DNA of 25,070 bases from NCBI GenBank assembly GCA_964557335.1, contig CAZKZX010000001.1, positions 1-25,070 of the forward strand, read 5' to 3'. The DNA comes from an uncultured Methanomicrobia archaeon (GTDB lineage Archaea; Halobacteriota; Bog-38; Methanoflorentales; Methanoflorentaceae). Positions 1,864 through 24,051 of the stretch are shown here, piece after piece. The notes under the pieces were generated by a model. The model was not told the DNA's origin, did not search any database, and was given only the letters and a program-made list of their open reading frames with translations. Both the position numbers and the translations under genes were made by a program. The stretch's first letter is position 1. Each line of letters opens with the position of its first letter.

Positions 1864-1865
1864 CT

Positions 1866-2354: not shown

Positions 2355-2681
2355 ATTACTTATTTGCTTTAGAAGGTGAAGTTATCAAAGTGTCTTGAAA
2401 AGCTCCACACGTGGAGAAGAGGCTTTCTGAAGACTTTTCAAGGATGTCATCATTATACAATCAATAAGAGAATGGAAGGCTGTAGGCTCGTTCTTATTCA
2501 ACTCCTCGAGTGCTACAAAGCACGTATATTATTACTGTTCAATACATCGATGTGCTGCCTTATCACTCAAAAAAGAGCTTATCGCTATAACACTGATGTA
2601 GCTCAAGTGCGAGAATTCCAGGCAGTTTCCAAAACCAATAGTCTTAAAGACATATAGCTAATTATTGAATGGGCAACTGGT

Positions 2682-3626: not shown

Positions 3627-3666
3627 CTGTCTTATGTCAGATGCCTTATAATCAAAAGGGGTAAAA

Positions 3667-4272
3667 ATGGTAGAAGTACTTACAGTTGATCTCAGAAAAT
3701 GCGCAAATTGCGGAGCTTGTGAGAAGGCGTGCGCTGAACGACACGAAAATGGCAAAGCCCGTCTTAAAATAAAAGACGTTGTCCAATCGAGAGGCCATAT
3801 GTACGGAAATTTTGTACTTGCCGTAAGTTGCAAACACTGCGTAAACCCCGTTTGCATTGGAGTGTGTGCGCCTCAAGCCATAGTGCGCGAGGAGGACCTA
3901 GTGTACATTGACGATGAAGCGTGCATCGGCTGCGGCAAATGCGCAAAAGCGTGCCCGTTTAACGCTATATTTATGCACGAAGAGATCGTGATGCCGACAG
4001 CACAGCATTCTGAGCGAAGTATTCTTTCCATGTTATTTCAAAAGGAAAAAAGTGGACAAGTGGAGCCAACGAAGTTGAAAGCGAAAAAGGTTCGAAAAGC
4101 GTACAAATGCGATAGATGCAAGGAATATGAAGATATGGCTTGTATAGAAGTCTGCTTTTACAACGCGCTTTCATTAATGGATACAGATGAACTACCGACG
4201 GCCGAGAAGCCGGAGCACAAGGCACTTTTGGAGCGACACGTCGTCGCAGAACCCAATGAACTCCAGACTTGA
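3667..4272 (+). CDS. 4x[4Fe-4S] ferredoxin-type protein (DmsB/NrfC/HydN/CooF family)
   Basis: Sixteen-Cys pattern: CANCGACEKAC, CKHCVNPVCIGVC, CIGCGKCAKACP, KCDRC...ACIEVCFYNAL. Confidence 0.9.
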   Translation: MVEVLTVDLRKCANCGACEKACAERHENGKARLKIKDVVQSRGHMYGNFVLAVSCKHCVNPVCIGVCAPQAIVREEDLVYIDDEACIGCGKCAKACPFNAIFMHEEIVMPTAQHSERSILSMLFQKEKSGQVEPTKLKAKKVRKAYKCDRCKEYEDMACIEVCFYNALSLMDTDELPTAEKPEHKALLERHVVAEPNELQT

Positions 4273-4375
4273 CGTTACGGTCGCGTGATAAAAAGCACAC
4301 CCGCTTAAAAACCGGATACCTCATTTTTGGGGTTAAGATTTATACAATTGACCTAGAATTAACATAGGGAGTTCC

Positions 4376-5806
4376 ATGGACGTTTTACTGGTAAACCCCC
4401 CGGAAGTTCAAAGCAAGTATAAAGAGTTTTTGGGTCTGACAGCCCCTCCGCTCGGCTTGGCGTATATCGCTGCAGTATTAGAAGAAAACAGTGTTAGAGT
4501 CAAAATATTGGATGCACCAGCGCTCAACATGGATTTCTATAAATACAGAAAAGCAATCTCAAAGTCAAATGTTGATGTTCTTGGAGTGCAAACAACTACC
4601 CCTACAATACGTCAAGCCCTTCAAGTTGCACGAATCACCAAGGAAGAGCATCCTGATTGCATTGTAACTCTCGGCGGTTATCACGCTACGTTTATGTCCA
4701 ATCAAATCCTCAGGCAAAATGACTTTGTTGACATAATCGTAAGAAATGAAGGGGAGTTTACAACGCTTGAGATAGCAGATGCCATAGAGAACGATAAACC
4801 GCTTAAAAACATCGATGGCATAAATTATAGGGAGGGCAATATTCTGATAGAGACCCCGCAAAGGCCCCCCATTGAGAACCTCGACTTGCTGCCATTTCCG
4901 GCAAGGCATCTCTTGCCAATGGATCAATACATGGTTTTTGGAAGAAAGCAGCAACTCGCAACGATGATTTGCAGCAGGGGGTGTCCGATGGGTTGCTCAT
5001 TTTGTGCGTCAAGTGCAATGCACGGGAGGCGTGCACGGTTCCGGTCTCCGGAAAATGCAGTAGATGAGCTAGAACACATCGTGGACGACTATGGAGTCCG
5101 CATGATAGGTTTTATGGATGACACTTTTACCCTATACCCCAACTGGGTAAACAAATTTTGTGAACTCATCGCTAAAAGAGGCGTTGACGTTAAGTGGGGA
5201 TGCACGGCACGAGTCGATAGGATGGGCGAACAGCTTCTTAAGCAAATGAAGGAAGCTGGCTGCAGAACGCTTCTTCTCGGAGTTGAGAGTGGCAATCAAG
5301 GGATCTTAAACAACGTTCAGAAAGGAGCTACGATTGACCAGGCTCGAAAGACTTTCAAACTTGCACGGGATGTTGGGATGCACACAATTGCATCCATGAC
5401 AGTGGGAATGCCGGGGGAGACTAAAGTCACAGCAGATGAAACAATGAGCTTTACGAGGAGGGTGAACCCAGACTACGCCATATTCTCGCTTGCTACTCCG
5501 TATCCGGGTACGAAGTTCTTTGATCTTGCGGAAAAGATGGGACTTATTAAGGTCAAAGATTGGACACATTTCAATTTAATTATGCCTGTTCTCGAGACGA
5601 CAGAGTTTTCCCTCGACGAGCTGCGAGATATGCAGACAAAGGCCTTCAAGGACTTTTATATGAGACCGGGGTACCTATTGAGACAATTCAAAAAGGATAG
5701 ACTATTATTTCTCCTTATCTTTTATACCATTTTTAAAGGCGCTATAAAGTCAAAGTTTAAGTCTCTATTTAGCATTACAGCTGACCCACACATCAGCGAG
5801 GCGTGA
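4376..5806 (+). CDS. Cobalamin (B12)-binding radical SAM protein (class B methyltransferase-like architecture)
   Basis: N-terminal B12 domain (VLLVNPP...PPLGLAYIAAVLE, LGGYHAT), radical SAM motif SRGCPMGCSFC, then MDDTFT, GVESG and TPYPGT. Confidence 0.93.
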   Translation: MDVLLVNPPEVQSKYKEFLGLTAPPLGLAYIAAVLEENSVRVKILDAPALNMDFYKYRKAISKSNVDVLGVQTTTPTIRQALQVARITKEEHPDCIVTLGGYHATFMSNQILRQNDFVDIIVRNEGEFTTLEIADAIENDKPLKNIDGINYREGNILIETPQRPPIENLDLLPFPARHLLPMDQYMVFGRKQQLATMICSRGCPMGCSFCASSAMHGRRARFRSPENAVDELEHIVDDYGVRMIGFMDDTFTLYPNWVNKFCELIAKRGVDVKWGCTARVDRMGEQLLKQMKEAGCRTLLLGVESGNQGILNNVQKGATIDQARKTFKLARDVGMHTIASMTVGMPGETKVTADETMSFTRRVNPDYAIFSLATPYPGTKFFDLAEKMGLIKVKDWTHFNLIMPVLETTEFSLDELRDMQTKAFKDFYMRPGYLLRQFKKDRLLFLLIFYTIFKGAIKSKFKSLFSITADPHISEA

Positions 5807-6009
5807 TATCCTTTATACTTCGTTAGACAAAGAAACTGTATTGCGGACTCTGCTAATCACGGTCCAAACTCATACGGTCGACAAGTATTATCAATTATTA
5901 TGGATATAGTAATTATTAAAGAACTATATAGAGACCTTCTCGGTGATTATGCCCTTAATGACGATCTTCAATCACCAATATATAACAAACTAACAGGTGG
6001 TTTTTAACG

Positions 6010-6654
6010 ATACTTGAAGTCGTTGTATTTGCATTTACTGCTTTTGTCGTTGGTTTTTCGGGAGCCATCGTTCCGGGACCAATGTTAACAGTTTCGATTA
6101 CTGAATCATTGAAATAAGACTATAAGGCCGGAACCAGTGTCGTGATCGGACACGTTATGGCTGAGGCGGGTATCGTCACTCATAGGTTTGGGGCTTAGCC
6201 AAATTATCGGTTTACGAGAACATTTATTCTCATTTGCATTTTAGGAGGAGGTCTACTCGTATTTATGGGATTTAGCCTTATGAAAAGTGTAAAAGGGCAC
6301 GCATCTATAGAGGTAGTGCCTGACGAAAAAGTTACTTACGGGCCGATTTATGGGGGCCTGGTAACAAGCGTTTCAAATCCCTTCTTCTTCATGTGGTGGT
6401 TCACGGTAGGAATGACATTCATGTATCAAGGCTTAAAAATTACAGGTTTAGTTGGTTTAGTTGCTTTCCTCGTTTTTCACTGTATGTCTGATCTCTCTTG
6501 GTATGGTTTTATATCCATCTGTGTCGATAGGGGGGCTTCTATCATAGGCGAAAAGACATATAAATTCATCCTCGGTGGCTGCGGCATATTTTTGATAGCG
6601 TTGGGCATAAATTTTGTATACAAAGGAATTATTAGCATATACGTCTTTAGGTAA
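6010..6654 (+). pseudogene. LysE/RhtB-family translocator pseudogene
   Basis: Hand translation from 6010 gives ILEVVVFAFTAFVVGFSGAIVPGPMLTVSITESLK*DYKAG...IGH. Lesions: ATA at the expected start after a GGTGG RBS-like motif, in-frame TAA at 6115-6117, and two compensating frameshifts (about 6178 and 6215). The 6265-6654 ORF carries the C-terminal NPFFFMWW and FHCMSDLSWY motifs. Confidence 0.85.
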
Positions 6655-7082
6655 CACAACGGACTCATTCGCCCCATACGCAGCATTAACGCGTTATTAT
6701 GCGAACATTGACCGATTAAATCAACTGATAATATTGTAACGTTTAACTCGCTTTTTGGTCTAGTAGCCCGTTTGGTTTGGCTGACATTGTAACAGAGGAA
6801 TAAAGGACTAATGGAACCCCCCATTAAAGCGATGACAAGGCCAATTTTGTCCATGTGGCGGTGACTTTATGCATATATTACTGCTTAAGCACCATCACAA
6901 TAGTATTTCTTGGGCTTACAACTATCTGAAAAGGAACCCCAATTTGGCAGCTTATCCACCCCCGACAAAAGAGAGGGATTATAATAAATCGATGAAAAAT
7001 ATCTTAACTAAAATATTATTACTCAAAAATGCCTAATATATTGATGAAATACTAAATTTTTTTGACATTTTATAGTATTTCC

Positions 7083-7099
7083 ACGAAAATTATATAAAT
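7083..7099 (+). promoter_or_regulatory. Archaeal BRE-TATA promoter of the Lrp/AsnC gene
   Basis: ACGAAAA followed by TTATATAAAT (7090-7099), about 27 nt upstream of the ATG at 7126. No RBS is seen, which fits a leaderless or short-leader transcript. Confidence 0.65.
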
Positions 7100-7125
7100 A
7101 TTTAGTAATATATCAATATTTACAT

Positions 7126-7593
7126 ATGACTGAAGGCATTGAATCTGAATTAGATGAAATCGATTTAGCGATACTCCGCTCCTTACAAAACAATGCAAGG
7201 ATTACGATATCGAAGATGTCAGATGATATTGATGTGCCTGATGCAACTATCTCGCATCGGCTTAAAAAGTTGGAAGAGAGCGTGATCAAGCACTACACCG
7301 TCGCATTGGACTACCATAAGCTTGGCCTCGCAATGATGGCAATCATTATCATCCAAACAGAAACCGAAAAGCACGGAGCGGTGAAAATGGAGCTCTCGAA
7401 GCTTGATGAAGTATCAGAGGTGTACAGCGTCTCTGGTGAATACGACCTTCTGATAAAGCTGTGGGCCCACAATATCGAAGAGCTTAATCAGATCATCAAC
7501 AGTAAGATACGCTCAATTGACGGAGTTGAAGACTTAACTGAGATGATTATTATGGAGCGTGTTAAGGAGGAGATGACCCCAGTACTGCTATAA
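7126..7593 (+). CDS. Lrp/AsnC family transcriptional regulator
   Basis: N-terminal HTH ([21 protein letters not shown]...[12 protein letters not shown]) and RAM domain ([14 protein letters not shown]). Confidence 0.93.
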
Positions 7594-13316: not shown

Positions 13317-14606
13317 TTAATAACCGCCTTCCCTATTATTCAGAGAATGTTCAGCGATGACGTTTTCCAACGGAGTACAAGGCAAATCTAAAGATTGGGC
13401 CACTTCCTTGTTTACAAGTTTGCCATTAATTACATTTATGCCACTTTTCAATTCTGGCAAATCATATATCGCCTGTATTCCATGTTCCGCGAGAGCTAAC
13501 ACATAGGGAAAAATCGCTTGCCCCAACAAAGTTGTTGAAATTCTTGGGACTCGTCCGGGCATATTTGTAACCCCATATCGTATATTGCCAAACTCATCTA
13601 AGAAAACAGGGTTTTTATGCGTCGTTCCCCGTGAGCCGTAAATATTGCCCCCCTGATCAATTGAGATGTCCACAATTACCCTCTTTCTCGATGTTCGCAT
13701 TTTTTTAAGAACCTCTCGATCAATGATAAGTGCCGCTTTTCTACCGACAGTATAGGCAGCACCTATGATGATGTCTGTTTGAGTAAGATCAAATCTATAT
13801 TTTTCCTTAAGATAAGATGCTATATCTATGTCACGAAAGGCGCTAGGTGTTTCCAAGATTTGGATTTTAAAATCTTTCAATTCCGGTTGGGAGATAAAAA
13901 GTTGGAGCTCTGGTATTCTTTTTCCTTCTCTCTGAATTATGTAAACCTTAGCACCCATTTTGACCAATATCTTTGAGGCGTTTTTTCCTGCAACACCTCC
14001 TCCCAATACAAGAGCAGTTTTACCTGTCAGATCGTAAGGAGGCTCGTCGAATAATGTGCTATATGCAAGGCTGTTGAGGAGGCGTTCTAACTGCTCTTTT
14101 TCTTTAACGGAGACCTCTATTTTATCCCTCTTTATGTTCGCGTGTGTTAAATAAAAGGCAGCCTGATACGCTCCTAATACCCCAGCGACGATGCTGCTGG
14201 GCTCTAAAAGGATGGTTCTACCATCTTTTACTATCGTTTCATAGGCGATAGCAGTAACCCCGGATTTCATCAACGCTTTGGCAAGAAGCTTGTTACTCGC
14301 TAAGTGTAAAAACGTAAACAGAAGGTGATCGGGCCGTATAAAATCGTATTCTTCTTGCATGGGCTCTTTAACTTTTACGATTAGATCAGCCTTACCCCAT
14401 GATTCCTCAGCGGTTTGGACAACTGTTGCGCGTGCCTTTGTATAATCTTCATCAGAGTACCCCGCTTTCTCGCCTGCAGTGGTTTGAACGATAACCTTCA
14501 TGCCCTTTTCTGTTAATACGCTAACTGAGGAAGGGGTAAGACTTACCCTCCCTTCTTGTGGTTTTATTTCTTTTGGGACGCCAACAACCCAAGAAAGCAG
14601 CGTCAT
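13317..14606 (-). CDS. ald: Divergent alanine dehydrogenase (AlaDH/PNT family) homolog
   Basis: VGVPKEIK..E.RV.LTP, VKVKEP, FLHLA, AIAYET, VLGGGVAG, VDISIDQGG and YGVTNMPG.VP motifs. Start placed at ATG 14606 (MTLLSWVVGVPKE), matching the normal family N-terminus. Confidence 0.85.
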   Translation of the reverse strand: MTLLSWVVGVPKEIKPQEGRVSLTPSSVSVLTEKGMKVIVQTTAGEKAGYSDEDYTKARATVVQTAEESWGKADLIVKVKEPMQEEYDFIRPDHLLFTFLHLASNKLLAKALMKSGVTAIAYETIVKDGRTILLEPSSIVAGVLGAYQAAFYLTHANIKRDKIEVSVKEKEQLERLLNSLAYSTLFDEPPYDLTGKTALVLGGGVAGKNASKILVKMGAKVYIIQREGKRIPELQLFISQPELKDFKIQILETPSAFRDIDIASYLKEKYRFDLTQTDIIIGAAYTVGRKAALIIDREVLKKMRTSRKRVIVDISIDQGGNIYGSRGTTHKNPVFLDEFGNIRYGVTNMPGRVPRISTTLLGQAIFPYVLALAEHGIQAIYDLPELKSGINVINGKLVNKEVAQSLDLPCTPLENVIAEHSLNNREGGY

Positions 14607-15228
14607 GATGATGAAAAATCGCTTGTTTGTGGCTCTCCTCAAGGAAAAATACGACCTTAAATGAATTTTTTCAAATAAGCTAAAAGATTTCTTTAACAAC
14701 ATTTTCCCCCCTTGATACTACGTTGTAAATAATAGTAGTAGGAGAATGTCCCTCACACCTCGTAGTCCTCGAGAAGTAACAGCAGTAGTTAATGGATCAA
14801 CCGTTCACATATTTTGCTATTTCTATTTTTTAACGAGATAAGAAAACACGTTTTTTGTTATTTTTCCTTACGTCGAATAGAACAACCTGAATCACGAAAC
14901 ATATTTGAGCTTCGTGTTATGACAGTTGTCATAATTTAATATTATCCACTAAGTGGAAGAACAATTACACACAGAATCTGAAGTAGAAAAACTATTTTCT
15001 TGATTTATTAAATAAGAGTTTTAGATTTCTGTTAAAATCTGCTGCGTCTAAAAAAGCATTTCTCTATTTGAATTGCTAGCTCTTTTGGCGTTTCCGTATT
15101 CAAACGTGTTGGTGTCATTTCTCTACGGACTTTTGCCTACTTTACCTGGAAGCAAATCTTAAATTATATTATAACACACTTCATACTCTTTATCGTACGA
15201 CATTTCTGTGAGCTGAGTAACGCTAAAA

Positions 15229-16068
15229 ATGCCACGAAATAAAATTTTACACAAGGATTGTATTGCTGGGATCAACGAACACATTGATGACGGCCAAGTT
15301 GATGTCATCGTCACCTCACCCCCGTACAACATCGGCGTTAAGTATAGCACCTATTATGATGCAATCCCGAGGGCAGAATATCTAAGCTGGATAGAAGACG
15401 TCACTAAGGAGTGTAAAAGAGCATTAAATGATAAGGGCTCACTATTTCTCAATTTAGGATACAAACCGAAAGACCCGTGGATTGCCTGGGAAGTCGCTTT
15501 TAGACTCAAGCCGCACTTAAAACTACAAAACGTTATCCATTGGATAAAGTCAATTGCAATTTCTCGCGACGACGTGGGCAAAGCTCAAAGCGTAGCTGGG
15601 GATATCGCTGTCGGACACTACAAACCCGTAAATAGCAAATATTTTGTCAACAAATGCCACGAATATGTCTTTCACTTTACCAAATATGGTGATGTCGAAC
15701 TGAGCAAACTTGAGATAGGCGTACCGTATCAGGACAAGAGCAATATACGACGATGGAAGGGTTCAAAACGTGGAATAAGAGATCGTGGCGACACGTGGTT
15801 TATACCATATACAACTATAAAAGCGAGGGAGAGAGATCGGCCACACCCTGCAAGTTTTCCGTTCAAATTACCGATGATGTGTATAAAATTGCACGGCGTA
15901 GAAAATACAAAACTGGTCTTGGATCCATTCATGGGAATTGGAAGTACCGCGGTAGCGTGTAAGAAGCTTGGGGTCGATTATATCGGATTTGAAGTGGACG
16001 AAAATTACATTGAAATTGCCGAAAAAATACTTAATAACGAGTCATTTATTAATTGCTCTACTAAATGA
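15229..16068 (+). CDS. Site-specific amino-DNA methyltransferase (N4-cytosine/N6-adenine), beta class, apparently orphan
   Basis: Catalytic motif [11 protein letters not shown] comes before the SAM-binding motif [12 protein letters not shown] (beta order); HPASFP and IGFEVDENY are also present. Confidence 0.92.
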
Positions 16069-16299: not shown

Positions 16300-17418
16300 T
16301 TAAATATTCTTCATAAAGCGTTCTTTTATTTCAACTGCAGTATATGGGATATCTCGCACATCTGCATTTCCTGGCTTTATTACAGCGTGGATGAACTTCA
16401 GCCCTCCTCTTTGTTCAAGTGCAGCGTTCAAATCTTCTGCCTTATATGCCTTACAGGTGTTTTCAATCCCGAAGCCCCGTGCTAACAATTCGAGGTCCAT
16501 TTTTTGACTCGCCGTTTGTTGGTTGCCCGTTGAACCGTACGTTCCATTATCGAGGGCGACAATCGTGAGGTTTTCTCTGCCGAATTGTGATACGCTACAG
16601 AGAGCGTTGGGATTCATAAGGAGGCTTCCGTCGCCATCAAGGACAATAACGTCTCTCCTAGTGTACAAAGATACTCCTAAACCTATAGAAGACGCGAGCC
16701 CCATGCTCCCAAGCATATAGAAGTTCGTGGGCTGATCACACACTGCATAGAGTTCCTTACTCGGCACGCCGATGTTCGAGATGATGATTTTACCCTCTAG
16801 ATGAGACAACATTGCCCGAATCGCATCGTACCGCGTCATAAGTACATGCTCGAATGGAGATGTATTGATCGTCACTGGACATTCAGCTCTTCCACGCTTC
16901 ACTGTGTGATTAACGTCAAGTGAAGCGCACTCCCACAGCTGGGGAGATATAAGAATGACAACAGGTAAACGCGTTTCAAAAGACGTTCTTATTCCTTCAT
17001 TCATTAGAAAGAGGTCGTCAATTGTGTGTACTTCATAACTTTGAACCTCTAACGCAGTTAAAACTGCCCTTAAATGCGTGCCCCAATACACCTGCGCCTC
17101 TATGCCCTCTCTATACACTCCTCTCCAACTTGCCACAATTGGGAGGGGTATTTCATACGTAAAACTCAAAGAAGAGAGCGCGTTTAAAAGATTTCCTATT
17201 CCTGTGCTTTGAATGAGCATGAGTGGATGCGCCCCGGCAAGGTAAGCGCCGGCGCATATGCCAACCCCATCCTCCTCTCTTGTCAGTTGAACTTCAAAGA
17301 AGTTATCAGAAACAAGAGGCAGCAGATTTTTAAGCCTGTCGCAAGGAAGAGTCGCAACTAAATCAATCTTATTTCTTTTAAATAGCTCAATAATTGCCTG
17401 TTCTGCTGCCATGTCCAT
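16300..17418 (-). CDS. comDE: Fused sulfopyruvate decarboxylase ComD-ComE
   Basis: ComD half has LPCD, TREEDGVGICAGAYLAG and SWRG. ComE half has MTRYDAI, NFYMLGSMG and the ThDP motif GDGSLLMN...DNGTYGSTG. It lies 23 nt downstream of cysteate synthase. Confidence 0.93.
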   Translation of the reverse strand: MDMAAEQAIIELFKRNKIDLVATLPCDRLKNLLPLVSDNFFEVQLTREEDGVGICAGAYLAGAHPLMLIQSTGIGNLLNALSSLSFTYEIPLPIVASWRGVYREGIEAQVYWGTHLRAVLTALEVQSYEVHTIDDLFLMNEGIRTSFETRLPVVILISPQLWECASLDVNHTVKRGRAECPVTINTSPFEHVLMTRYDAIRAMLSHLEGKIIISNIGVPSKELYAVCDQPTNFYMLGSMGLASSIGLGVSLYTRRDVIVLDGDGSLLMNPNALCSVSQFGRENLTIVALDNGTYGSTGNQQTASQKMDLELLARGFGIENTCKAYKAEDLNAALEQRGGLKFIHAVIKPGNADVRDIPYTAVEIKERFMKNI

Positions 17419-17441: not shown

Positions 17442-18728
17442 TTACGTTATAACCTCCAGTATCTCCTCTAGCGCTACTTGAGGATTGTCCACAATCAACT
17501 GGGGTGCAATTGTATATCGCTGTTTATCCTCTGCAAGCCGCTTTTCTCCGCCGCCGGTAATATTTAAAAGAACCACTTCATCTGTGTTTATGCTCTGATG
17601 TTCAACTGCTTGCAGTAATGAAGCCGTTGCTACCGCTGCGGCTGGAACAATGTCTATGCCCTCGAGATCTTCAAATAAGCTTGACGCCGCAATTGCTTCG
17701 TCGTTCGTCACCGCATACATCTCGCCAAAGGTGTTCTGTAATGCGTCATACACCCCGCCTTTCATTGAGTACGCGGGATTTCGATTCGATAGAACGTCTG
17801 CATAAATTTTAGCGATGTTTTCCTTCGCATGTTTCATATCGATCGAAGGGACAATAAATCGTCGCCCTGCTTTCCAAGCGTTATACATGGGAACAAATGG
17901 GCGATTTTGTGAAAGATGCAGTTGCGGAAGCCTAGCCTGTACGAATTGTCCACTATCTTGTAGCCTCAACGACGCTTCCCATGCTGCTATAGCTCCTGCT
18001 CCACTCCCTATCGCTTGAAAATAATACGTCGGGGTTTTTCCTATAGTCAGTGCGGCCTCAAGCATGACCGTACCCATGCCGTCGCGCCGCGCAACGTTCC
18101 TCGCCCCCCCTTCTGGTGAGAGCCCATCAGCCTGAGAAAATCTTTCCCCGAGGGCTATAGCATCTGAATAATCATTACCGGCTTTTAAATAAATGAGCTT
18201 GACATTGTTTGACGGTTTTTCCGGCAACCACAGCTTATCTGAAGAGCTTTCAAGCCCAACGAGTATCAACTTAAGTGAAGCCTGGGAGGTGGTGACCGTA
18301 TGGGCAAAAGCCCGTGCAGTGTTGCCAACAGATGAGATAACAAGAGCATTAATGCCGTTTTCTAACGCTCGCTGCACGGTAGGGGGCGACTCCAGCTCCT
18401 TAAAGCTGCACGTCTCGAAATGCGCGTTCATTTCCGGCCAATAGCCATTGAAGCTGATATACAGTTCTTTCAAACCGAGCTCTTTTGAAAGCCCCACACT
18501 TTTATAGGTGATGGAGCGACCGCAAGTATTAAGCTTCCCGTTTGTTGGCAACCACTGTCCAAATTTCCAGATGTTATTATCACTAGTCGGTTCAAGTCTC
18601 TTTTTATGATACACTGTCCGCAACAACGCGTCCCCGCACTTACATCGTAGTGCGTATCCTCTGTAGCTTACACTAGAATGACATCCCAAGCAGACGATGT
18701 CGTAGCCTTTATTTAGGTTTGCAATCAT
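17442..18728 (-). CDS. Cysteate synthase (PLP-dependent, threonine-synthase-related)
   Basis: N-terminal CxxC...CxC, PLP lysine in TCSFKELE, SVGNTARAF, the family-typical ARRDGMGTVM, YFQA.GSG.GAIAAWEA, VLSNRNPAY and NITGGG; adjacent to comDE. Confidence 0.93.
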   Translation of the reverse strand: MIANLNKGYDIVCLGCHSSVSYRGYALRCKCGDALLRTVYHKKRLEPTSDNNIWKFGQWLPTNGKLNTCGRSITYKSVGLSKELGLKELYISFNGYWPEMNAHFETCSFKELESPPTVQRALENGINALVISSVGNTARAFAHTVTTSQASLKLILVGLESSSDKLWLPEKPSNNVKLIYLKAGNDYSDAIALGERFSQADGLSPEGGARNVARRDGMGTVMLEAALTIGKTPTYYFQAIGSGAGAIAAWEASLRLQDSGQFVQARLPQLHLSQNRPFVPMYNAWKAGRRFIVPSIDMKHAKENIAKIYADVLSNRNPAYSMKGGVYDALQNTFGEMYAVTNDEAIAASSLFEDLEGIDIVPAAAVATASLLQAVEHQSINTDEVVLLNITGGGEKRLAEDKQRYTIAPQLIVDNPQVALEEILEVIT

Positions 18729-18857: not shown

Positions 18858-18886
18858 CGTTTATTAACAAAAATTACATTTTGACC

Positions 18887-19465
18887 ATGAAAAAAAGCAA
18901 ATTGCCGCCCAAAAAAGCCAATATATCTCATAATGCTAATGATTTTGATTTTTTGTACAATAAGGAAAATATTATTAAGTGTTTCCAATGTGGGAGATGT
19001 ACTTCGAGCTGTCCAGCAGCACGGGTCTTTGACGAATACAGTCCGCGTGAGATCATGCGTCGGGTTCAAGACGGTGAGAGCAACGATCTCGTCCATGATG
19101 ATGTGATATGGCTCTGCGGCCAGTGCCATACGTGTAGTTCACGGTGTCCGAGAAATAACGATCCAGCATCCATTATACTTGATCTACGACAGCGAGCGTA
19201 TAAAGAGGGCTTAGGAAGCCCTAACCTGCGCCAAAAAGCAGAGCTTATGGTGCAATCGCTGTGGGAGAAGGGGGTTACAGTTTCACCTGATCTCGTCAAA
19301 CAGGGAATGTTCAGTGACCTTGTGGACTCTGATACGCTCATACAGTTGCGGACTGAACTTGGTTTGGCTGACGCGGAGACGCGAGAGATTAAAATCCCCG
19401 AAAGTGCGCTTGAGGAAATACGAACTATTTTACGAAAAACTGGCATTATCGCGAGAGGTGAATGA
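18887..19465 (+). CDS. hdrC: Heterodisulfide reductase subunit C
   Basis: CFQCGRCTSSCP, YSPREIMR, IWLCGQCHTCSSRCPR, P...I..LRQ.A. ATG at 18887 chosen over TTG at 18881. Confidence 0.93.
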   Translation: MKKSKLPPKKANISHNANDFDFLYNKENIIKCFQCGRCTSSCPAARVFDEYSPREIMRRVQDGESNDLVHDDVIWLCGQCHTCSSRCPRNNDPASIILDLRQRAYKEGLGSPNLRQKAELMVQSLWEKGVTVSPDLVKQGMFSDLVDSDTLIQLRTELGLADAETREIKIPESALEEIRTILRKTGIIARGE

Positions 19466-19466
19466 A

Positions 19467-20393
19467 TTGGCAACGAATGATCGTGCACTGTTTTTCGGCA
19501 GACGCCCAGAGCGTTTGTACCTGTTTAAGAGCTGTGTTGCAGGCACCTTCTGTCCATATATAGAGCGGTCATTCAGATTCATCCTGAACTCACTAAGCAT
19601 CGACTACTTTGATGACCCGCGTCAATCATCGTGTACCGGCTTCGGGAAACACTGCGGGGTAATGCCCCCAGAGACCACCCTCGCGCTCAATGCAAGGAAT
19701 CTGGCTTTGGCGCACGACTCAGGGTACACGAACGTCGTGTGTACGTGCCCAACCTCATACGGCAATTTAAAGGAGTGCATAGAAGAGCTAAAAGACGTAA
19801 AGACAAAGAACGCTATCGATGCAGTCCTACAGACCATTGGTGTCGTATACAACGACGACCTCCACGTCTTTCACGCTGCTGAAGTGATTCACTCGCTCCG
19901 TGATACGCTCAATAAAAGGTCCAGAGGGTCTCTAAATGGTATCAGAATAGCTACGCACCATGGATGTCACTATACTAAGATATTCTACGATGAGATTGTA
20001 GGGGGTACTTGGGAATACCCGACGCTGCTAGACGAGATATTCGAGCCCTTTTCACCCGAACTGATCGACTACCCTGAGCGGACGTTGTGCTGTGGCCTTG
20101 GGTTCACGCACCTCATTGGCGATAGAGTTTATACAGAAGCAACGGCATTGAGAAAGCTTGAAAGCATCCTCTCTGAAACGCCCGATGTGATAGTCACAAT
20201 GTGTGCCGGCTGTCAAGCGGTGCTCGATACATACCAAAAGTCGTTTGAAAATAAACTGGACCATACGGCGCCTGTATTAAATGTGGCGCAACTTATGGCC
20301 ATACTACTCGGAGCAGACGTCCACAAAGATGCCTGTCTCCAATTCTCATCGATTGATGTCGGGCCACTCCTAGAGAAAATGGCGGTGATCTGA
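19467..20393 (+). CDS. hdrB: Heterodisulfide reductase subunit B (two CCG domains; N-terminal one atypical)
   Basis: LFKSC, QSSCTG, CTCPTSY, HHGCHY, LCCGLG, TMCAGCQ and the ending NVAQL.A..LGAD. Start inferred as TTG 19467, 5 nt after GAGGTGA (alternative GTG 19458). Confidence 0.92.
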   Translation: MATNDRALFFGRRPERLYLFKSCVAGTFCPYIERSFRFILNSLSIDYFDDPRQSSCTGFGKHCGVMPPETTLALNARNLALAHDSGYTNVVCTCPTSYGNLKECIEELKDVKTKNAIDAVLQTIGVVYNDDLHVFHAAEVIHSLRDTLNKRSRGSLNGIRIATHHGCHYTKIFYDEIVGGTWEYPTLLDEIFEPFSPELIDYPERTLCCGLGFTHLIGDRVYTEATALRKLESILSETPDVIVTMCAGCQAVLDTYQKSFENKLDHTAPVLNVAQLMAILLGADVHKDACLQFSSIDVGPLLEKMAVI

Positions 20394-20394
20394 T

Positions 20395-22749
20395 ATGGGC
20401 GGCTTCGGAGTCTTTATCTGCAAATGTGACGGCAACATCTCTCAGATCGTGGACGTAGACGAACTTGAACAACATTTTCTAAAGGAACACATCACGCTAA
20501 CCGATCAACATCTTTGCTCACTACAAGGACAGGAAAAGATTCGACAGGCGATACTCGAAAACGCGCTTGAGGGAGTCGTGATCGCTTCTTGTTCGCCGAA
20601 CAACCACGGAAAGACATTTCAACGATGTATCAGCGACGCCGGGCTCAACCCCTATCTTTTGGAGTTTGCAAATATCAGAGAACAATGCTCGTGGGTCACT
20701 AAAGATCCCGAAAAGGCAACGGAAAAAGCCCGCGACCTCATTTTTGCTTCGCTTCTTCGCCTTCAACACGCAGAACCGCTTGAGGACTTCAACGTGCGAG
20801 TTAATCACACCGCAATGGTAATTGGTGGTGGTATAGCTGGGATAACATCAGCACTCTCGCTTGCAGAAAACGGAATTAAAACCTATCTCATCGAAAAGGA
20901 GCCCTCACTAGGTGGTAACTCAGTGAGAGTGGGAAAGGTATTCTCTCCTCATAAAATGGTCGAGGAATGCGCGATGTGTTCCCTCAGTCCTCTTATGAAC
21001 GACGTTTACCGAAGCGCAAACATTGAGACCCTGACAAGCGCAGAGCTCACGGGTATCAATGGTACCGCAGGCAACTTCAACGTGGAACTAAAGCTAACGC
21101 CGAGGAGGGTCAATGAAAGCTGTACAAGCTGCGGTGAATGCGCGATAGTGTGCCCAGTGGAAGTAGACGACTGGTGGAATGCCGGTACAAAAAGTCGGAA
21201 GGCTATTTACAAGCCATTCCCTCAGGCTGTCCCAGATCGATACGTCATAGATGTTGAAACGTGCATCGGCTGCGGAAAATGCGTTAAGGCCTGCAAATCC
21301 GAGGCAATCGATCTCAATGAAGAAAGCGCTACGCTTCGCATAAACGTTGGAACTATTGTCATTGCAACGGGGCATGATGAGTTTGACCCACATCTTAGAC
21401 CTGAGTACGGCTACGGACGGTTTAAAGACGTTGTAACGCAGCTTGAGCTTGCTCGATTTATTGGGGTCAACGGTCCCACGAACGGCGAACTCTTACGGCC
21501 CTCAGACTTGACTCCTCCTAAGGAGGTCGTAATGATACAATGCGTCGGTTCAAGGGACGAAAAGCCAAACGGCTTACGGTACTGTTCATCGGTGTGCTGC
21601 ATGGTAGCGCTCAAGCACGCCAATTACATACGGGATTACTATCCTGGAACGAACATCACCATTCTCTACACAGACATTAGAGCTCTCGGAATTCACGAGA
21701 ACTATTACCGACACGTACAGGAGAAGGGAGTTCGGTTTATTCGCGGCAGGGCTGGCGACGTGAAGTTTCGACACGGAAAGTTGTTTGTGAGCGTAGAAGA
21801 TACTCTTAGCTCACGGTTTTTGGAACTTGAAGCAGATTTGGTGGTCCTGTCGAACGGCCTCAAACCTTCAGCGGGAACTATTAAAATGGCACAACTCCTA
21901 GGACTGGAACTCAGCGACGACATGTTCGTTAAGGAGAGGCACCCGAAGCTTGAGGGCTCGAGCACAAGCGTTAAGGGGATTTATGTCTGTGGCACCTCCC
22001 AAGGACCAAAAGATATCACCGAGAGCGTCCTACAAGCCGATGCCGCAGCGCTTAAAGCGTTGTCACTCGTGGGGAAAGAACAACTTTCAATAGAACCCTT
22101 CACCGCGTTTGTGAAAGAAAGCTGCGATGGGTGCGGTCGATGCGTACATGCGTGCAAGAGTAGCGCACTTAAGATCGTTGACAGGCGAGGGGTGATCGAT
22201 CCCCTCCTGTGCACTGGTGGCGGTGCGTGCTTGTCAAGTTGCCCAAGCGCCTCGCTTGATTTGCACGGAAGCACTGAAGCGCAGCTTGAGGCTTCAATAC
22301 GAGGCGTCTTGGAAAACAAGAAGCACGGAGAAGTACGAACGATTGCGTTCCTCGATACGAAAATCGGCTATCCGGCTGCGGATAACATGGGTGCATCAAA
22401 ACTTTCATATCCCGACTCGATACGCATCATTAACGTTCCTTCTGTGCTTCGGCTCTGCCCTCATCACATAAATACAGCGTTCAAGTTAGGAGCTGATGGT
22501 GTTTTTATTGGACAAGGCTTTGAAGCAGAGAGCTGCGGCGAAGATTTTGAAACCGTTGAGGCAAAACTCAATAAATTGAACGACGACGTTCTGAAGCTCG
22601 GAGTGGATCCTGCACGGCTTAAGATATATAGAGTCTATATCCCTCACTTCGTAGGACTCCACAAACGGCTTATTTCATTTGATCTAGCCATACGTGCAAA
22701 TAGCGAGCACAAGACGCAGCTCGTTGAAGTGGAAACGGACTCTTCATAG
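20395..22749 (+). CDS. hdrA: Heterodisulfide reductase subunit A with a C-terminal MvhD-like domain
   Basis: GVFICKC, ASCSP, ANIREQCSWV, FAD motif VIGGGIAG, inserted ferredoxin domain (CTSCGEC..VCP, CIGCGKC..AC), QCVGSRD...YCSSVCC, GT.QGPKDI, a C-terminal ferredoxin domain and an MvhD-like tail (YP.SIRII...AF..GADGVF). Confidence 0.95.
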   Translation: MGGFGVFICKCDGNISQIVDVDELEQHFLKEHITLTDQHLCSLQGQEKIRQAILENALEGVVIASCSPNNHGKTFQRCISDAGLNPYLLEFANIREQCSWVTKDPEKATEKARDLIFASLLRLQHAEPLEDFNVRVNHTAMVIGGGIAGITSALSLAENGIKTYLIEKEPSLGGNSVRVGKVFSPHKMVEECAMCSLSPLMNDVYRSANIETLTSAELTGINGTAGNFNVELKLTPRRVNESCTSCGECAIVCPVEVDDWWNAGTKSRKAIYKPFPQAVPDRYVIDVETCIGCGKCVKACKSEAIDLNEESATLRINVGTIVIATGHDEFDPHLRPEYGYGRFKDVVTQLELARFIGVNGPTNGELLRPSDLTPPKEVVMIQCVGSRDEKPNGLRYCSSVCCMVALKHANYIRDYYPGTNITILYTDIRALGIHENYYRHVQEKGVRFIRGRAGDVKFRHGKLFVSVEDTLSSRFLELEADLVVLSNGLKPSAGTIKMAQLLGLELSDDMFVKERHPKLEGSSTSVKGIYVCGTSQGPKDITESVLQADAAALKALSLVGKEQLSIEPFTAFVKESCDGCGRCVHACKSSALKIVDRRGVIDPLLCTGGGACLSSCPSASLDLHGSTEAQLEASIRGVLENKKHGEVRTIAFLDTKIGYPAADNMGASKLSYPDSIRIINVPSVLRLCPHHINTAFKLGADGVFIGQGFEAESCGEDFETVEAKLNKLNDDVLKLGVDPARLKIYRVYIPHFVGLHKRLISFDLAIRANSEHKTQLVEVETDSS

Positions 22750-22770: not shown

Positions 22771-24051
22771 GTGAATACGCCTGCACAAAAGCCCCTTCAA
22801 ACTATTAAAGAAATTAATGATAAAATAGCATCGGGGGACGTTAAAGTGCTCACTGCCTCCGAACTATGCGATATGGTCAGAGACGGCGAGGAGGTATACG
22901 ACGTTGACGTTGTCACGAGCGGCACCAAAGGGATAATGAGTGGCACGTATGGGACGCTCTCCTTTATGGTTGCAGAGCCAAGCACTTTTGAGCGGGCGGA
23001 GAAGGTTTGGCTAAACGACGTACCGGCCTTTGTCGGGCCGTGTCCAAATGAACGACTTGGAATTGTCGATGTGATCATCTCAGGGACAGCGATTTGCAGA
23101 AGCGACAACAGATACGGAGGGGGGCACCTGTTGCATGACTTGCTGCGCAGAGAAGAGGTGAGCGTCGAACTGGAAACCGATGAAGGACGTCACCTTCAAA
23201 TCGAGACGCACCTTGATGAGATGCATTACGCCGCCCTGTTCGCAACAAGAAACGCGTTTAAAAACTATAACGCCTTTATCAATCCTCGAGAAGGGTGTGT
23301 CAGATCCATTTTTTCTGTGCAGTGCCTTCACGGGCCGTATGAGGAGGCGAGTTTCTGTGGGTGTGGCGAAATTAACCCGCTAGAGAAGGATCCTCAGCTT
23401 GAAACTATAGGCATAGGCACGAAAGTTTTGTTAAATGGGGCTGTTGGATACGTAACAGGTCGCGGGACTCGAAGTTCGCCTGAAAGACCTAATTTATCGG
23501 GGTATGCTGAAATGTGGGATATGAACCCCCGTTATATAGGAGGGTACAACACCTCTGCTGGACCTGATATTTTTTGTTCATGGGCAGTTCCAATTCCGAT
23601 CACAAACAACAGAGTGTTGGAAAACGTAAAGAAGACTGATGAAGAGATACCGCTCCCTATAGTAGATGTAAATGGTAGAGAGCTGCTCGGATACGCGAAG
23701 TACAGTGACGTGTGGAAAAGCAAGTGTGCGCCAGTTACATACGAAGAAAAGATGTGCCAGACATGCGAGCAGTGCTTCGTCACGGAACTCTGTCCTACCG
23801 GCGCGTTTAGATACGGCAAAGGCATTGACAAAGAAAAATGCACGAACTGCGGCGCATGTGTAATTGCTTGTATATACGGTGCTTTAAAAGCCGATCTCGG
23901 GCATATTCCCTTTAAGGGCATGGAAATACCGGTTACGTTGCGGCAGTCTGATAAATGCAAGGCAGTAAAGCTTATGGACAGTCTTAAAGAGATGATTGAA
24001 AGAGGAGAATTCTTGTTAAGCGAGCCGGTCGGAAAAATAACATTTAGATGA
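22771..24051 (+). CDS. Methanogenesis marker 16 metalloprotein (DUF39 family + C-terminal 2x[4Fe-4S]); probable coenzyme M synthase
   Basis: VDVVTSGT.GIMSGT, GPCPNERLG, RNAFKNY.AF.N, SF.GCGEINPLEKDP, GTKVLLNGAVGYV.G.GTRS, then CQTCEQC....LCP and CTNCGAC...C. GTG start after a GAGGT RBS, 21 nt after hdrA. Confidence 0.92.
   Translation: MNTPAQKPLQTIKEINDKIASGDVKVLTASELCDMVRDGEEVYDVDVVTSGTKGIMSGTYGTLSFMVAEPSTFERAEKVWLNDVPAFVGPCPNERLGIVDVIISGTAICRSDNRYGGGHLLHDLLRREEVSVELETDEGRHLQIETHLDEMHYAALFATRNAFKNYNAFINPREGCVRSIFSVQCLHGPYEEASFCGCGEINPLEKDPQLETIGIGTKVLLNGAVGYVTGRGTRSSPERPNLSGYAEMWDMNPRYIGGYNTSAGPDIFCSWAVPIPITNNRVLENVKKTDEEIPLPIVDVNGRELLGYAKYSDVWKSKCAPVTYEEKMCQTCEQCFVTELCPTGAFRYGKGIDKEKCTNCGACVIACIYGALKADLGHIPFKGMEIPVTLRQSDKCKAVKLMDSLKEMIERGEFLLSEPVGKITFR

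What the first reader, a model, noticed from the sequence alone, without database searches (positions are those of the whole stretch)
19467..19800. HdrB N-terminal non-cubane cluster has two Cys-to-Ser changes while the C-terminal cluster is intact
Seen: the N-terminal CCG domain reads QSSCTG (TCG at 19629-19631 where the family has CC) and CTCPTSY (TCA at 19755-19757 where the family has CxxC). Each codon differs from a Cys codon by two bases, so single sequencing errors are unlikely. Non-canonical cysteines occur nearby (GTFCPY, GFGKHCG). The C-terminal domain keeps all ligands (HHGCH, LCCG, MCAGC). Established: in the methanococcal HdrABC-MvhAGD structure each CCG domain ligates a non-cubane [4Fe-4S] with five Cys; as I recall, the N-terminal (distal) cluster binds CoB and the C-terminal (proximal) cluster binds CoM. 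Inference: the CoB-side site is lost or re-ligated and the CoM-side site is retained. This fits CoM-only chemistry (CoM-S-S-CoM, CoM persulfide or polysulfide) and the adjacent CoM genes.
Basis: partly seen in the sequence, partly recalled or inferred. Interest (0 to 1): 0.72.

Follow-up and report, generated by a model that had tools for sequence, protein, structure and literature searches.

The report
HdrB paralog with rebuilt N-terminal cluster site
In this peat-methanogen gene cluster, the catalytic subunit of a heterodisulfide reductase has two of its ten "perfectly conserved" iron-sulfur cysteines replaced by serine; this is a selected trait of a whole, undescribed subfamily that sits inside the coenzyme M biosynthesis genes, which points to a role in making or recycling coenzyme M.

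Summary
In HdrB (window 19467-20393), Ser55 (TCG 19629-31) aligns with the first Cys of the N-terminal 'CC', and Ser97 (TCA 19755-57) aligns with the last Cys of 'CxxC'. All five C-terminal ligands are present.

This is neither an error nor decay. 95 distinct homologues, down to about 41% identity, keep both serines, and they use all four TCN codons.

The same clade has two invariant extra cysteines, Cys92 (a CxC motif) and Cys104 (next to the proton-path Glu), so the N-domain again has five Cys.

Related groups carry other ligand sets:
- ANME/Hadarchaeales HdrC-HdrB fusions have only three N-site Cys.
- Methanobrevibacter/Methanosphaera forms alter the C-terminal 'CC' instead.

Positions 55 and 97 are almost always Cys, Ser or Thr, so a cluster with mixed ligation is more likely than an empty site.

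The operon hdrC-hdrB-hdrA(mvhD)-MMP16, divergent from cysteate synthase-comDE, recurs across the window's lineage. Partial Hdr/CoM-gene linkage recurs in Methanocella, ANME and Methanobrevibacter. The linkage does not track the Ser/Ser pattern.

The substrate is unproven. A CoM-linked disulfide reductase is my best guess. This is a new variant of a known kind.

The parts
19467..20393 (+). hdrB paralog, 308 aa (an alternative GTG start at 19458 gives 311 aa); two CCG domains
   Evidence: Pfam PF02754, 65.7 bits, two stretches. Best PDB sequence matches are HdrB chains, E 4e-33 to 4e-17. AF2 model has pLDDT 88.7; Foldseek top hits are HdrB structures with TM 0.80-0.88. Scores fall below the NCBIfam equivalog cut-offs: TIGR03288 117 vs 345, NF041780 200 vs 450.
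19533..19535 (+). Cys23 codon (TGT), first canonical N-terminal ligand, retained
   Evidence: Invariant column in A1, A2, A3 and A4.
19629..19634 (+). Ser55 (TCG) and Cys56 (TGT), in the place of the canonical 'CC'
   Evidence: Aligned to CC of 5odc_B/9sfi_C. Ser is kept in the clade and encoded by all four TCN codons.
19740..19748 (+). Cys92-Thr-Cys94: a clade-specific extra Cys, two residues before the canonical first Cys of CxxC
   Evidence: C92 is invariant in A2. Canonical HdrB mostly has Thr, Ala, Ser or Val at this position, with rare Cys. In the model, the strand ends at residue 92 and the helix starts at 95.
19755..19757 (+). Ser97 (TCA), in the place of the last Cys of CxxC
   Evidence: Aligned to Cys81 of 5odc_B. 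At least 90% Ser in A2. Codons TCA/TCC/TCT/TCG are all used.
19773..19778 (+). Glu103-Cys104: the conserved proton-path Glu (= E87 of M. thermolithotrophicus HdrB) followed by the second clade-specific Cys
   Evidence: Alignment (E103 under E87, C104 under A88). The role of E87 is from PMC13518236. C104 is invariant in A2.
19965..20213 (+). C-terminal CCG ligands Cys167 (19965-67), Cys208/209 (20088-93), Cys246 (20202-04), Cys249 (20211-13), plus His168
   Evidence: All canonical. C167, C209, C246 and C249 are invariant, and H168 is invariant or nearly so.
18881..19465 (+). hdrC, two complete CxxCxxCxxxCP motifs; its stop codon lies 1 nt before the hdrB start
   Evidence: Pfam Fer4_8/Fer4_17. 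NCBIfam HdrC models score 110 bits, below cut-off.
20395..22749 (+). hdrA fused to an MvhD (FlpD) domain, 784 aa; starts 1 nt after the hdrB stop
   Evidence: Pfam Pyr_redox_2, two ferredoxin inserts, and FlpD at residues 650-766. NF041891 990 bits, NF041778 852 bits, both below cut-off.
22771..24051 (+). methanogenesis marker 16 metalloprotein (MMP16/ComF, coenzyme M synthase); starts 21 nt after the hdrA stop
   Evidence: TIGR03287 504.8 bits against a cut-off of 364. Pfam HcyBio plus Fer4. Function from PMC12068725.
17442..18728 (-). cysteate synthase, divergent from hdrC across a 152-bp intergenic region
   Evidence: TIGR03844 533 bits against a cut-off of 325.
16300..17418 (-). fused sulfopyruvate decarboxylase ComDE
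   Evidence: TIGR03845 192 bits (cut-off 148) and TIGR03846 230.5 bits (cut-off 221.5).

Best explanation
Shown. The two serines are a fixed trait of a distinct HdrB paralog subfamily. JGI labels several members 'HdrB1', and the best NCBIfam match is the 'ferredoxin:CoB-CoM HdrB' model, below its cut-off. In this subfamily the N-terminal CCG site has been rebuilt. The first Cys of 'CC' and the last Cys of 'CxxC' are Ser. Two new invariant cysteines appear: Cys92, which makes a C-x-C with Cys94, and Cys104, next to the proton-path Glu103. The N-domain therefore still offers five thiols (C23, C56, C92, C94, C104) plus two hydroxyls. The C-terminal, CoM-side cluster ligands, His168 and Glu103 are unchanged. 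The gene lies in a tightly packed hdrC-hdrB-hdrA(mvhD)-MMP16 operon, divergent from cysteate synthase-comDE.

Inferred. The N-site still holds an Fe-S cluster, but with altered ligation (mixed Cys/Ser-O, or Cys92/Cys104 recruited). That would change its geometry, potential or open coordination site. The complex draws electrons through HdrA/MvhD and HdrC to HdrB and cleaves a disulfide whose one half is CoM bound at the intact C-terminal cluster. The other half, held at the rebuilt site, may be CoB. Given the operon, it may instead be a CoM-pathway sulfur species: a mixed disulfide or persulfide on MMP16, or CoM-S-S-CoM. The enzyme would then serve CoM synthesis or CoM thiol homeostasis.
For: Ligand mapping onto solved HdrB sequences.

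Clade-wide conservation of S55, S97, C92 and C104 from 98% down to about 41% identity. Synonymous codon turnover at both Ser positions.

Positions 55 and 97 are Cys/Ser/Thr in 453 of 454 distinct full-length relatives. A hydroxyl or thiol is always kept, as expected for a metal ligand or an H-bond donor and not for an abandoned site.

The model is confident and matches the HdrB fold.

H168 and E103 correspond to H154 and E87, the residues of the proton path to the CoM thiol.

Operon spacing is 1, 1 and 21 nt.

Gene identities exceed the curated cut-offs for MMP16, cysteate synthase and ComDE.

The same synteny is found in 18 of 19 loci of the window's lineage. Partial Hdr/CoM-gene linkage is found in Methanocella (5/5), ANME-type fusions (6 of 9 loci with enough downstream sequence to judge) and Methanobrevibacter (3/3), with different gene orders.

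In M. acetivorans, CoM starvation of the MMP16 mutant induces cs, comDE and hdrABC together (PMC12068725). Deleting hdrA1B1C1 lowers total CoM and induces cs/comDE (PMC12713407).
Against: No coordinates were available, so I could not test whether Cys92 or Cys104 can reach the cluster. Cys104 lies seven residues (about two helical turns) after position 97, so a simple one-for-one replacement is geometrically doubtful.

The same ligand set occurs in Methanobacteriaceae, and a close variant (Cys97 retained) in Methanomassiliicoccales, in both cases with no CoM genes nearby.

CoM-gene linkage also occurs with other ligand sets, so ligands and linkage are not coupled.

The relatives are obligate hydrogenotrophic methanogens that need an HdrABC for CoM-S-S-CoB. 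The window's complex has the full bifurcating HdrA-MvhD architecture, and a second copy of the variant hdrB lies beside the mcr operon in relatives. All of this fits an ordinary heterodisulfide reductase.

I could not check which ligand set M. acetivorans HdrB1 has, so the genetic data may not transfer.
Confidence: 0.5

Rival explanations
1. [quoted passage not shown] The distal (CoB-side) non-cubane cluster is simply ligated differently in this lineage, through Cys92/Cys104 and/or Ser-O. The neighbouring CoM genes reflect co-regulation of CoM supply with CoM recycling, not a different substrate.
For: Relatives are obligate hydrogenotrophic methanogens (Bog-38/Methanoflorentaceae), which depend on soluble HdrABC. 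The window encodes a complete HdrA with inserted and C-terminal ferredoxin domains plus MvhD. A second variant hdrB lies next to mcrBDCGA in relatives. H168 and E103 of the proton path are kept. Databases label family members HdrB1, or ferredoxin:CoB-CoM HdrB. M. acetivorans HdrB2 carried only about 5 Fe and 5 S, yet HdrA2B2C2 reduced CoM-S-S-CoB (PMC5296606), so a full complement of two clusters may not be required for this chemistry.
Against: The 'five perfectly conserved cysteines' per cluster are regarded as the family hallmark (PMC13261682). Scores are well below both HdrB equivalog cut-offs. Sister groups with Ser/Thr at positions 55 and 97 occur in Bacteroidota, Actinomycetota and Altiarchaeales, where CoM-S-S-CoB is not expected. 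I did not establish whether these genomes also hold a canonical HdrB.
Confidence: 0.35
2. The N-terminal cluster is lost, and the protein works as a single-cluster enzyme like DsrK, HmcF or TmcB. One non-cubane cluster (C-terminal) works with a redox-active cysteine (Cys104 or Cys92) that attacks a protein or persulfide substrate.
For: DsrK-type proteins work with one CCG cluster plus one conserved Cys left over from the missing motif, and they tolerate Asp in place of the last ligand (PMC10861901). ANME/Hadarchaeales relatives keep only three N-site Cys, and some keep Cys104 without Cys92. Cys104 sits beside the active-site proton-path Glu.
Against: Three canonical ligands (C23, C56, C94) are invariant across the whole family. 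Positions 55 and 97 keep a hydroxyl or thiol almost without exception. That is hard to explain if no metal site remains. The N-domain fold is modelled with high confidence.
Confidence: 0.12
3. It is a sequencing or assembly error, or a decaying pseudogene.
For: None beyond the departure from the canonical motif. One relative has a truncated second copy (L031).
Against: The reading frame is intact and the operon translationally coupled. The identical pattern occurs in 95 distinct sequences from independent assemblies, including long-read chromosomes. Both Ser positions show synonymous codon turnover. Each Ser codon is two steps from Cys.
Confidence: 0.01

Closest known systems
Canonical HdrB of HdrABC-MvhAGD / Fdh-Hdr-Fmd complexes (PDB 5ODC, 7BKB, 8RVU, 9SFI; TIGR03288)
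   Same: Same fold (TM 0.80-0.88). Same two-CCG-domain architecture, same partners (HdrC, HdrA, MvhD), an intact C-terminal five-Cys site, and the conserved His168/Glu103 proton-path residues.
   Different: 25-30% identity. Two of the five N-terminal ligands are Ser, and there are two extra invariant Cys (92, 104). It scores 117 bits against a cut-off of 345. It is embedded in CoM biosynthesis genes rather than next to a hydrogenase or formate dehydrogenase.
'Ferredoxin:CoB-CoM heterodisulfide reductase' HdrB of Methanosphaera/Methanobrevibacter (NCBIfam NF041780; KEGG-style 'HdrB1')
   Same: Best-scoring named family (200 bits). Same hdrC-hdrB-hdrA(mvhD) gene order. In Methanobrevibacter it is also adjacent to MMP16. 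It groups with the window's clade in the NJ tree, apart from canonical HdrB, although the joining node had less than 70% bootstrap support.
   Different: Below the cut-off (450). Those proteins keep the canonical N-site and instead replace the first Cys of the C-terminal 'CC' with His or Thr, which is the opposite domain.
DsrK / HmcF / TmcB (HdrD-like, single CCG cluster)
   Same: A precedent that CCG-domain disulfide or trisulfide reductases work with a non-standard ligand set and a lone conserved Cys from the degenerate motif, acting on a protein-bound sulfur substrate.
   Different: Those are fused to a ferredoxin domain and membrane-linked, and they lack a recognisable second CCG motif. 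Here both CCG domains are complete folds, and the degenerate one is N-terminal.
ANME-1/ANME-2/Hadarchaeales HdrC-HdrB fusion proteins next to MMP16
   Same: Same superclade, with Ser/Thr at positions 55 and 97 and direct adjacency to MMP16, cysteate synthase and comDE.
   Different: Fused to HdrC, with no hdrA adjacent and no Cys92. Most have only three N-site Cys.

Membership tests
CCG-domain proteins (Pfam PF02754) | Score above the gathering threshold, with two CCG domains | tested here: met
   65.7 bits against 20.6, two stretches.
Canonical CoB-CoM heterodisulfide reductase subunit B (TIGR03288) | Equivalog score at or above the curated cut-off | tested here: not met
   117.3 bits against 345.15.
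Canonical CoB-CoM heterodisulfide reductase subunit B | Two complete five-Cys motifs, CXnCCXnCXXC (10 ligands) | tested here: not met
   The N-terminal motif reads C...SC...CxxS, so 8 of 10 ligands are present. The C-terminal motif is complete.
Canonical CoB-CoM heterodisulfide reductase subunit B | HdrB fold and partner subunits HdrC and HdrA encoded alongside | tested here: met
   Foldseek TM 0.80-0.88 to HdrB chains. hdrC and hdrA-mvhD flank the gene.
Canonical CoB-CoM heterodisulfide reductase subunit B | Reduces CoM-S-S-CoB | not testable with these tools
   Needs an enzyme assay.
Ferredoxin:CoB-CoM heterodisulfide reductase HdrB (NCBIfam NF041780) | Equivalog score at or above the curated cut-off | tested here: not met
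   200.3 bits against 450. It is the best-scoring model, but the window's clade is a separate branch.
DsrK-type single-cluster CCG reductases | Only one recognisable CCG motif, N-terminal ferredoxin fusion, conserved (G/T)ECGH cysteine | tested here: not met
   Two CCG domains are detected. There is no ferredoxin fusion, since HdrC is a separate ORF. No ECGH motif is present in the translation.
Methanogenesis marker 16 / ComF (neighbouring gene, TIGR03287) | Score at or above the curated cut-off; COG1900/HcyBio domain with an inserted ferredoxin | tested here: met
   504.8 bits against 363.95. PF01837 plus Fer4 at residues 352-373.

The most novel reading that the evidence does not exclude
The HdrB1-type Hdr module is the missing redox partner of coenzyme M synthase (MMP16/ComF). 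This covers hdrCBA in the window's lineage, where MMP16 is in the operon, and the HdrC-HdrB fusions in ANME and Hadarchaeales. Its intact C-terminal cluster would bind the nascent CoM sulfur. Its rebuilt N-terminal site would bind an enzyme-bound or inorganic sulfur partner instead of CoB. Reductive cleavage of a CoM-S-S-X intermediate would then be the last, so far unassigned, electron-requiring step of CoM (and possibly CoB) thiol formation. This would also explain why deleting hdrA1B1C1 in M. acetivorans lowers the total CoM and CoB pools.
Probability: 0.22. Interest if true: 0.82.

Novelty: new variant of a known kind. Interest (0 to 1): 0.6.

Why it matters
Current structural papers describe the ten cysteines of HdrB as perfectly conserved and as the hallmark of the heterodisulfide-reducing active site. 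A widespread, strongly conserved paralog family breaks that rule in a patterned way: the N-site in some lineages, the C-site in others, and only three ligands in ANME fusions. The non-cubane site is therefore evolutionarily tunable, and the family offers natural variants for dissecting how each ligand controls the open/closed switch and substrate choice.

[quoted passage not shown] The organisms concerned include Bog-38/Methanoflorentaceae relatives, which are among the most abundant methanogens in northern peatlands. How they make and recycle CoM therefore bears on methane emission.

Tried and rejected
1. Sequencing error or pseudogene. Rejected on conservation and codon evidence.

2. Rejected as a clade-wide explanation. 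Cys29 is Tyr in most members. Cys63 occurs in the window's subclade and a few bacterial-type members only.

3. Strict covariation of the Ser/Ser pattern with marker-16 linkage. Not found.

4. Measuring Cys92/Cys104-to-cluster distances. The AF2 model returns no coordinates to the scripting environment, so this could not be done.

5. Placing M. acetivorans HdrB1/HdrB2 in the ligand-pattern scheme. None of the three homology searches, the representative search or the cluster look-up returned a named Methanosarcina protein. The link to the M. acetivorans genetics therefore rests only on database naming ('HdrB1').

6. Literature searches for a prior description of Ser-substituted HdrB CCG motifs found none. 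The Hamann 2007 paper was not held, and Wagner 2017 was not among the papers the searches returned.

7. tRNA and Rfam scans of the window found nothing.

8. The deep nodes of the NJ tree have less than 70% bootstrap support, so the order of ligand gains and losses is only suggestive.
Full report
**What is there**

The window carries a compact gene cluster. On the minus strand lie a fused sulfopyruvate decarboxylase comDE (16300-17418) and cysteate synthase (17442-18728). After a 152-bp divergent spacer, the plus strand carries hdrC (18881-19465), hdrB (19467-20393), hdrA fused to an MvhD domain (20395-22749) and a COG1900/ferredoxin protein (22771-24051). The plus-strand genes are separated by 1, 1 and 21 nt, so they form one operon.

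NCBIfam places three of the neighbours above their curated cut-offs:
- cysteate synthase: TIGR03844, 533 against 325 bits;
- ComD/ComE: TIGR03845 and TIGR03846;
- methanogenesis marker 16: TIGR03287, 505 against 364 bits.

MMP16 was recently shown to be the primary coenzyme M synthase of Methanosarcina acetivorans (PMC12068725). The hdr operon is therefore embedded among the pathway-specific genes of the cysteate route to CoM.

**Checking the observation**

The HdrB translation was aligned by phmmer to solved HdrB chains (5odc_B, 9sfi_C, 8rvu_b).
- 'QSS55C56TG' falls under 'GASCCP'.
- 'C94PTS97Y' falls under 'C78NGC81Y'.

The first Cys of the CC pair and the last Cys of CxxC are Ser, encoded by TCG 19629-31 and TCA 19755-57, exactly as reported. 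The C-terminal domain has all five ligands (C167, C208, C209, C246, C249). Cys29 and Cys63 exist as stated.

Current literature describes the five cysteines of each CCG motif as 'perfectly conserved' and the hallmark of the family (PMC13261682; PMC10861901). The departure is therefore real.

**Not an error: a subfamily trait**

A search of 5.8 billion proteins returned 107 relatives. Nearly every full-length one from 98% down to about 42% identity keeps Ser (rarely Thr) at 55 and Ser at 97; the exceptions retain Cys at one of the two positions. The more distant canonical HdrBs (30% identity or less) have Cys at both.

In 46 genomic loci of this group, Ser55 is written TCG/TCA/TCC/TCT and Ser97 TCA/TCC/TCT/TCG. 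That is synonymous drift under purifying selection for serine, even though TCT and TCC are one step from a Cys codon.

The same clade has two further invariant cysteines that are uncommon in canonical HdrB.
- Cys92 (TGT 19740-42) makes a C-x-C motif with Cys94.
- Cys104 (TGC 19776-78) sits in the strongly conserved motif CTCPTSYGNLKEC.

Most canonical proteins have Thr, Ala, Ser or Val at 92 and Ala, Val or Thr at 104. The N-domain thus again offers five thiols: C23, C56, C92, C94 and C104.

Cys29 is Tyr in nearly all relatives below 85% identity. Cys63 occurs in the window's own subclade and in a few members of the bacterial-type group.

Cys104 directly follows Glu103. Glu103 aligns with Glu87 of the M. 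thermolithotrophicus enzyme, and His168 aligns with His154. A 2026 structural paper assigns these two residues to the proton path that ends at the CoM thiol (PMC13518236).

**A family with a plastic N-terminal site**

One scan of species-representative genomes with a clade profile gave 80 loci. I aligned their HdrBs and added a profile search of 1.84 billion cluster representatives. That search found 4441 family members at E ≤ 0.001, and most of the 150 best-scoring representatives, which were the ones I inspected, have the canonical pattern.

The variant forms cluster together near the window's protein:

| Group | Organisms | Ligand pattern |
|---|---|---|
| A | Window lineage, Methanocella, some Methanobacteriaceae | S55, C92, S97, C104 |
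| A' | Methanomassiliicoccales, some Methanobacterium | As A, but Cys97 retained |
| A'' | Uncultured bacteria including Actinomycetota | As A, but Cys55 retained |
| B | ANME-1, ANME-2, Hadarchaeales | HdrC-HdrB fusions of 470-520 aa; Thr/Ser55, Ser/Thr97, usually only three N-site Cys |
| B' | Syntrophoarchaeum, GoM-Arc1 | Similar to B |
| Further | Bacteroidota, Altiarchaeales | Ser/Thr at both positions |
| C | Methanosphaera, Methanobrevibacter | Canonical N-site; first Cys of the C-terminal 'CC' is His or Thr |

NCBI names group C 'ferredoxin:CoB-CoM heterodisulfide reductase subunit HdrB'.

A bootstrapped NJ tree recovers each group with 96-100% support. It places all forms with Ser/Thr at 97 in one region, next to group C and apart from canonical HdrB. 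The deepest nodes have less than 70% support.

Across 454 distinct full-length sequences, positions 55 and 97 are Cys, Ser or Thr in all but one. A thiol or hydroxyl is always kept. I take this as the strongest available sign that the N-site still binds metal rather than being abandoned.

**Structure**

An AlphaFold2 model built on a 25-sequence alignment is confident (mean pLDDT 88.7, pTM 0.89). Its best PDB matches are HdrB chains (TM 0.80-0.88).
- Cys92 ends the β-strand that precedes the ligand loop.
- Cys94 lies between the strand and the following helix.
- Ser97 is in the first turn of that helix.
- Cys104 lies two turns further along the helix.

I could not obtain coordinates, so whether Cys92 or Cys104 can reach the cluster is untested. 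By simple helix geometry, Cys104 is unlikely to occupy the exact place of Cys97.

**Gene context across lineages**

I ran tblastn with the window's proteins against the 80 loci.

| Lineage | Loci with linkage | Arrangement |
|---|---|---|
| Window's lineage | 18 of 19 (the exception is a 2.8-kb contig) | comDE-cs / hdrCBA-MMP16 |
| Methanocella | 5 of 5 | comDE-cs upstream of hdrCBA; no MMP16 nearby |
| Group B fusions | 6 of 9 loci with enough downstream sequence to judge | Followed directly by MMP16, often with cs and comDE |
| Methanobrevibacter | 3 of 3 | MMP16 directly upstream of hdrC |

No CoM genes lie near the family members in Methanomassiliicoccales, Methanobacteriaceae of group A/A', the Methanosphaera-type group-C loci, Syntrophoarchaeum/GoM-Arc1 or the bacterial locus.

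For a single-copy gene in a 2-3 Mb genome, chance adjacency within 10 kb is below 1%. Recurrence in several orders with different gene orders therefore argues for a functional tie between this Hdr family and CoM biosynthesis. The tie does not follow the Ser/Ser pattern specifically.

**Organism**

The nearest loci are uncultured soil and peat 'Euryarchaeota/Halobacteriota' MAGs (88% and 78% identity). The next tier, at about 65% identity, includes isolate bog_38 and other Stordalen and SPRUCE MAGs. Bog-38 is equated with Ca. Methanoflorentaceae / Rice Cluster II, which are obligate hydrogenotrophic methanogens abundant in northern peat.

These relatives carry mcrBDCGA, and next to it sits a second copy of the variant hdrB.

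**Mechanism**

The following is shown:
- a selected alternative ligand set at the N-site;
- an intact CoM-side site and proton path;
- a complete electron-input chain (HdrA with FAD domain, two ferredoxin inserts, MvhD; HdrC with two full cluster motifs);
- operon membership with the CoM synthase.

The following is inferred. The complex is a disulfide reductase whose substrate includes CoM at the C-terminal cluster. The rebuilt N-site changes which partner thiol is accepted, or the potential at which it is released.

The operon suggests that partner could be a CoM-pathway sulfur species, such as an MMP16-bound mixed disulfide or persulfide, or CoM-S-S-CoM. Genetic observations in M. acetivorans are compatible with this:
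- CoM starvation of the MMP16 mutant co-induces cs, comDE and hdrABC.
- Deletion of hdrA1B1C1 lowers total CoM from 28 to 17 nmol/mg, makes CoB undetectable and induces cs/comDE.

I could not establish which ligand class the M. acetivorans proteins belong to, so this is a lead and not a test.

**Main rival**

The main rival is that this is simply the organism's heterodisulfide reductase with an idiosyncratic distal cluster. Several things favour it:
- the hydrogenotrophic lifestyle of the relatives;
- the full bifurcating architecture of the complex;
- the copy next to the mcr operon;
- the report that M. acetivorans HdrB2 with only about 5 Fe/5 S still supported CoM-S-S-CoB reduction (PMC5296606).

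A DsrK-like single-cluster mechanism with a catalytic cysteine has precedent but fits the ligand conservation less well.

**Novelty and verdict**

Three literature searches found no description of Ser-substituted CCG ligands in HdrB, or of the Hdr-MMP16 operon. The nearest precedents are the one-motif DsrK proteins and their Cys-to-Asp variation.

The protein is a CCG-domain HdrB homologue by fold and context. It fails both curated HdrB equivalog thresholds and the ten-Cys criterion. I therefore file it as a new variant of a known kind.

The CoM-only function remains an attractive, testable hypothesis.

Noticed in passing
L017 407-1207, L019 30-908, L020 251-1135, L023 1-735, L031 10095-10814: Bog-38/Methanoflorentaceae relatives carry a second copy of the variant hdrB, tail-to-tail with the mcrBDCGA operon. 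Four copies sit at contig ends, probably repeat-induced assembly breaks. In a complete chromosome (OY970393.1) the copy lacks its first ~70 residues, including Cys23 and Ser55-Cys56.
   Followed up: partly
L061, L065-L080; P0108-P0153: Methanosphaera/Methanobrevibacter members of the same family keep a canonical N-terminal site but have His or Thr in place of the first Cys of the C-terminal 'CC'. That is the mirror image of the window's change, in the domain that binds CoM.
   Followed up: partly
L043, L046, L049, L054, L059, L060; P0340-P0367: ANME-1, ANME-2 and Hadarchaeales relatives are HdrC-HdrB fusions (470-520 aa) with only three Cys left in the N-terminal site. There is no adjacent hdrA, and MMP16 follows immediately downstream.
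   Followed up: partly
P0165 (Williamwhitmania, Bacteroidota), P0169 (Altiarchaeales), L030 (uncultured bacterium): HdrB relatives with Ser at the position of the last N-terminal ligand (and Ser/Thr also at position 55 in the first two) occur in bacteria and in Altiarchaeales, lineages not known to use CoM or CoB. The bacterial locus L030 holds several hdrA and mvhD copies.
   Followed up: no
window 19458-19469: The hdrB start is ambiguous. GTG 19458 gives 311 aa, as gene callers chose for P0001/P0002, and overlaps the hdrC stop. TTG 19467 gives 308 aa, as in P0003-P0008, and has a GAGAGG Shine-Dalgarno-like sequence 8 nt upstream.
   Followed up: partly
window 6265-6654: This ORF matches only positions 73-193 of the 193-position LysE transporter profile. 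The first third seems missing, so the gene may be truncated or frameshifted, in a region otherwise poor in ORFs (5806-7126).
   Followed up: no
window 15229-16068: An N6/N4 DNA methyltransferase lies between alanine dehydrogenase and comDE. It is present in relatives L001 and L021 but absent at the same place in L002, so it is a variable insertion.
   Followed up: no
window 104-5806: The 5' part of the window holds the end of an energy-converting hydrogenase or complex-I-like module (49-kDa large-subunit fragment, NuoH-like membrane subunit, 2x[4Fe-4S] subunit). It is followed by a thioredoxin-reductase-like flavoprotein, a polyferredoxin and a B12-binding radical SAM enzyme.
   Followed up: no
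window 13317-14702: The alanine dehydrogenase homologue is 461 aa and matches the 370-position alaDH model in two separate stretches, below the curated cut-off (287 against 392 bits). This suggests an N-terminal extension and an internal insertion.
   Followed up: no
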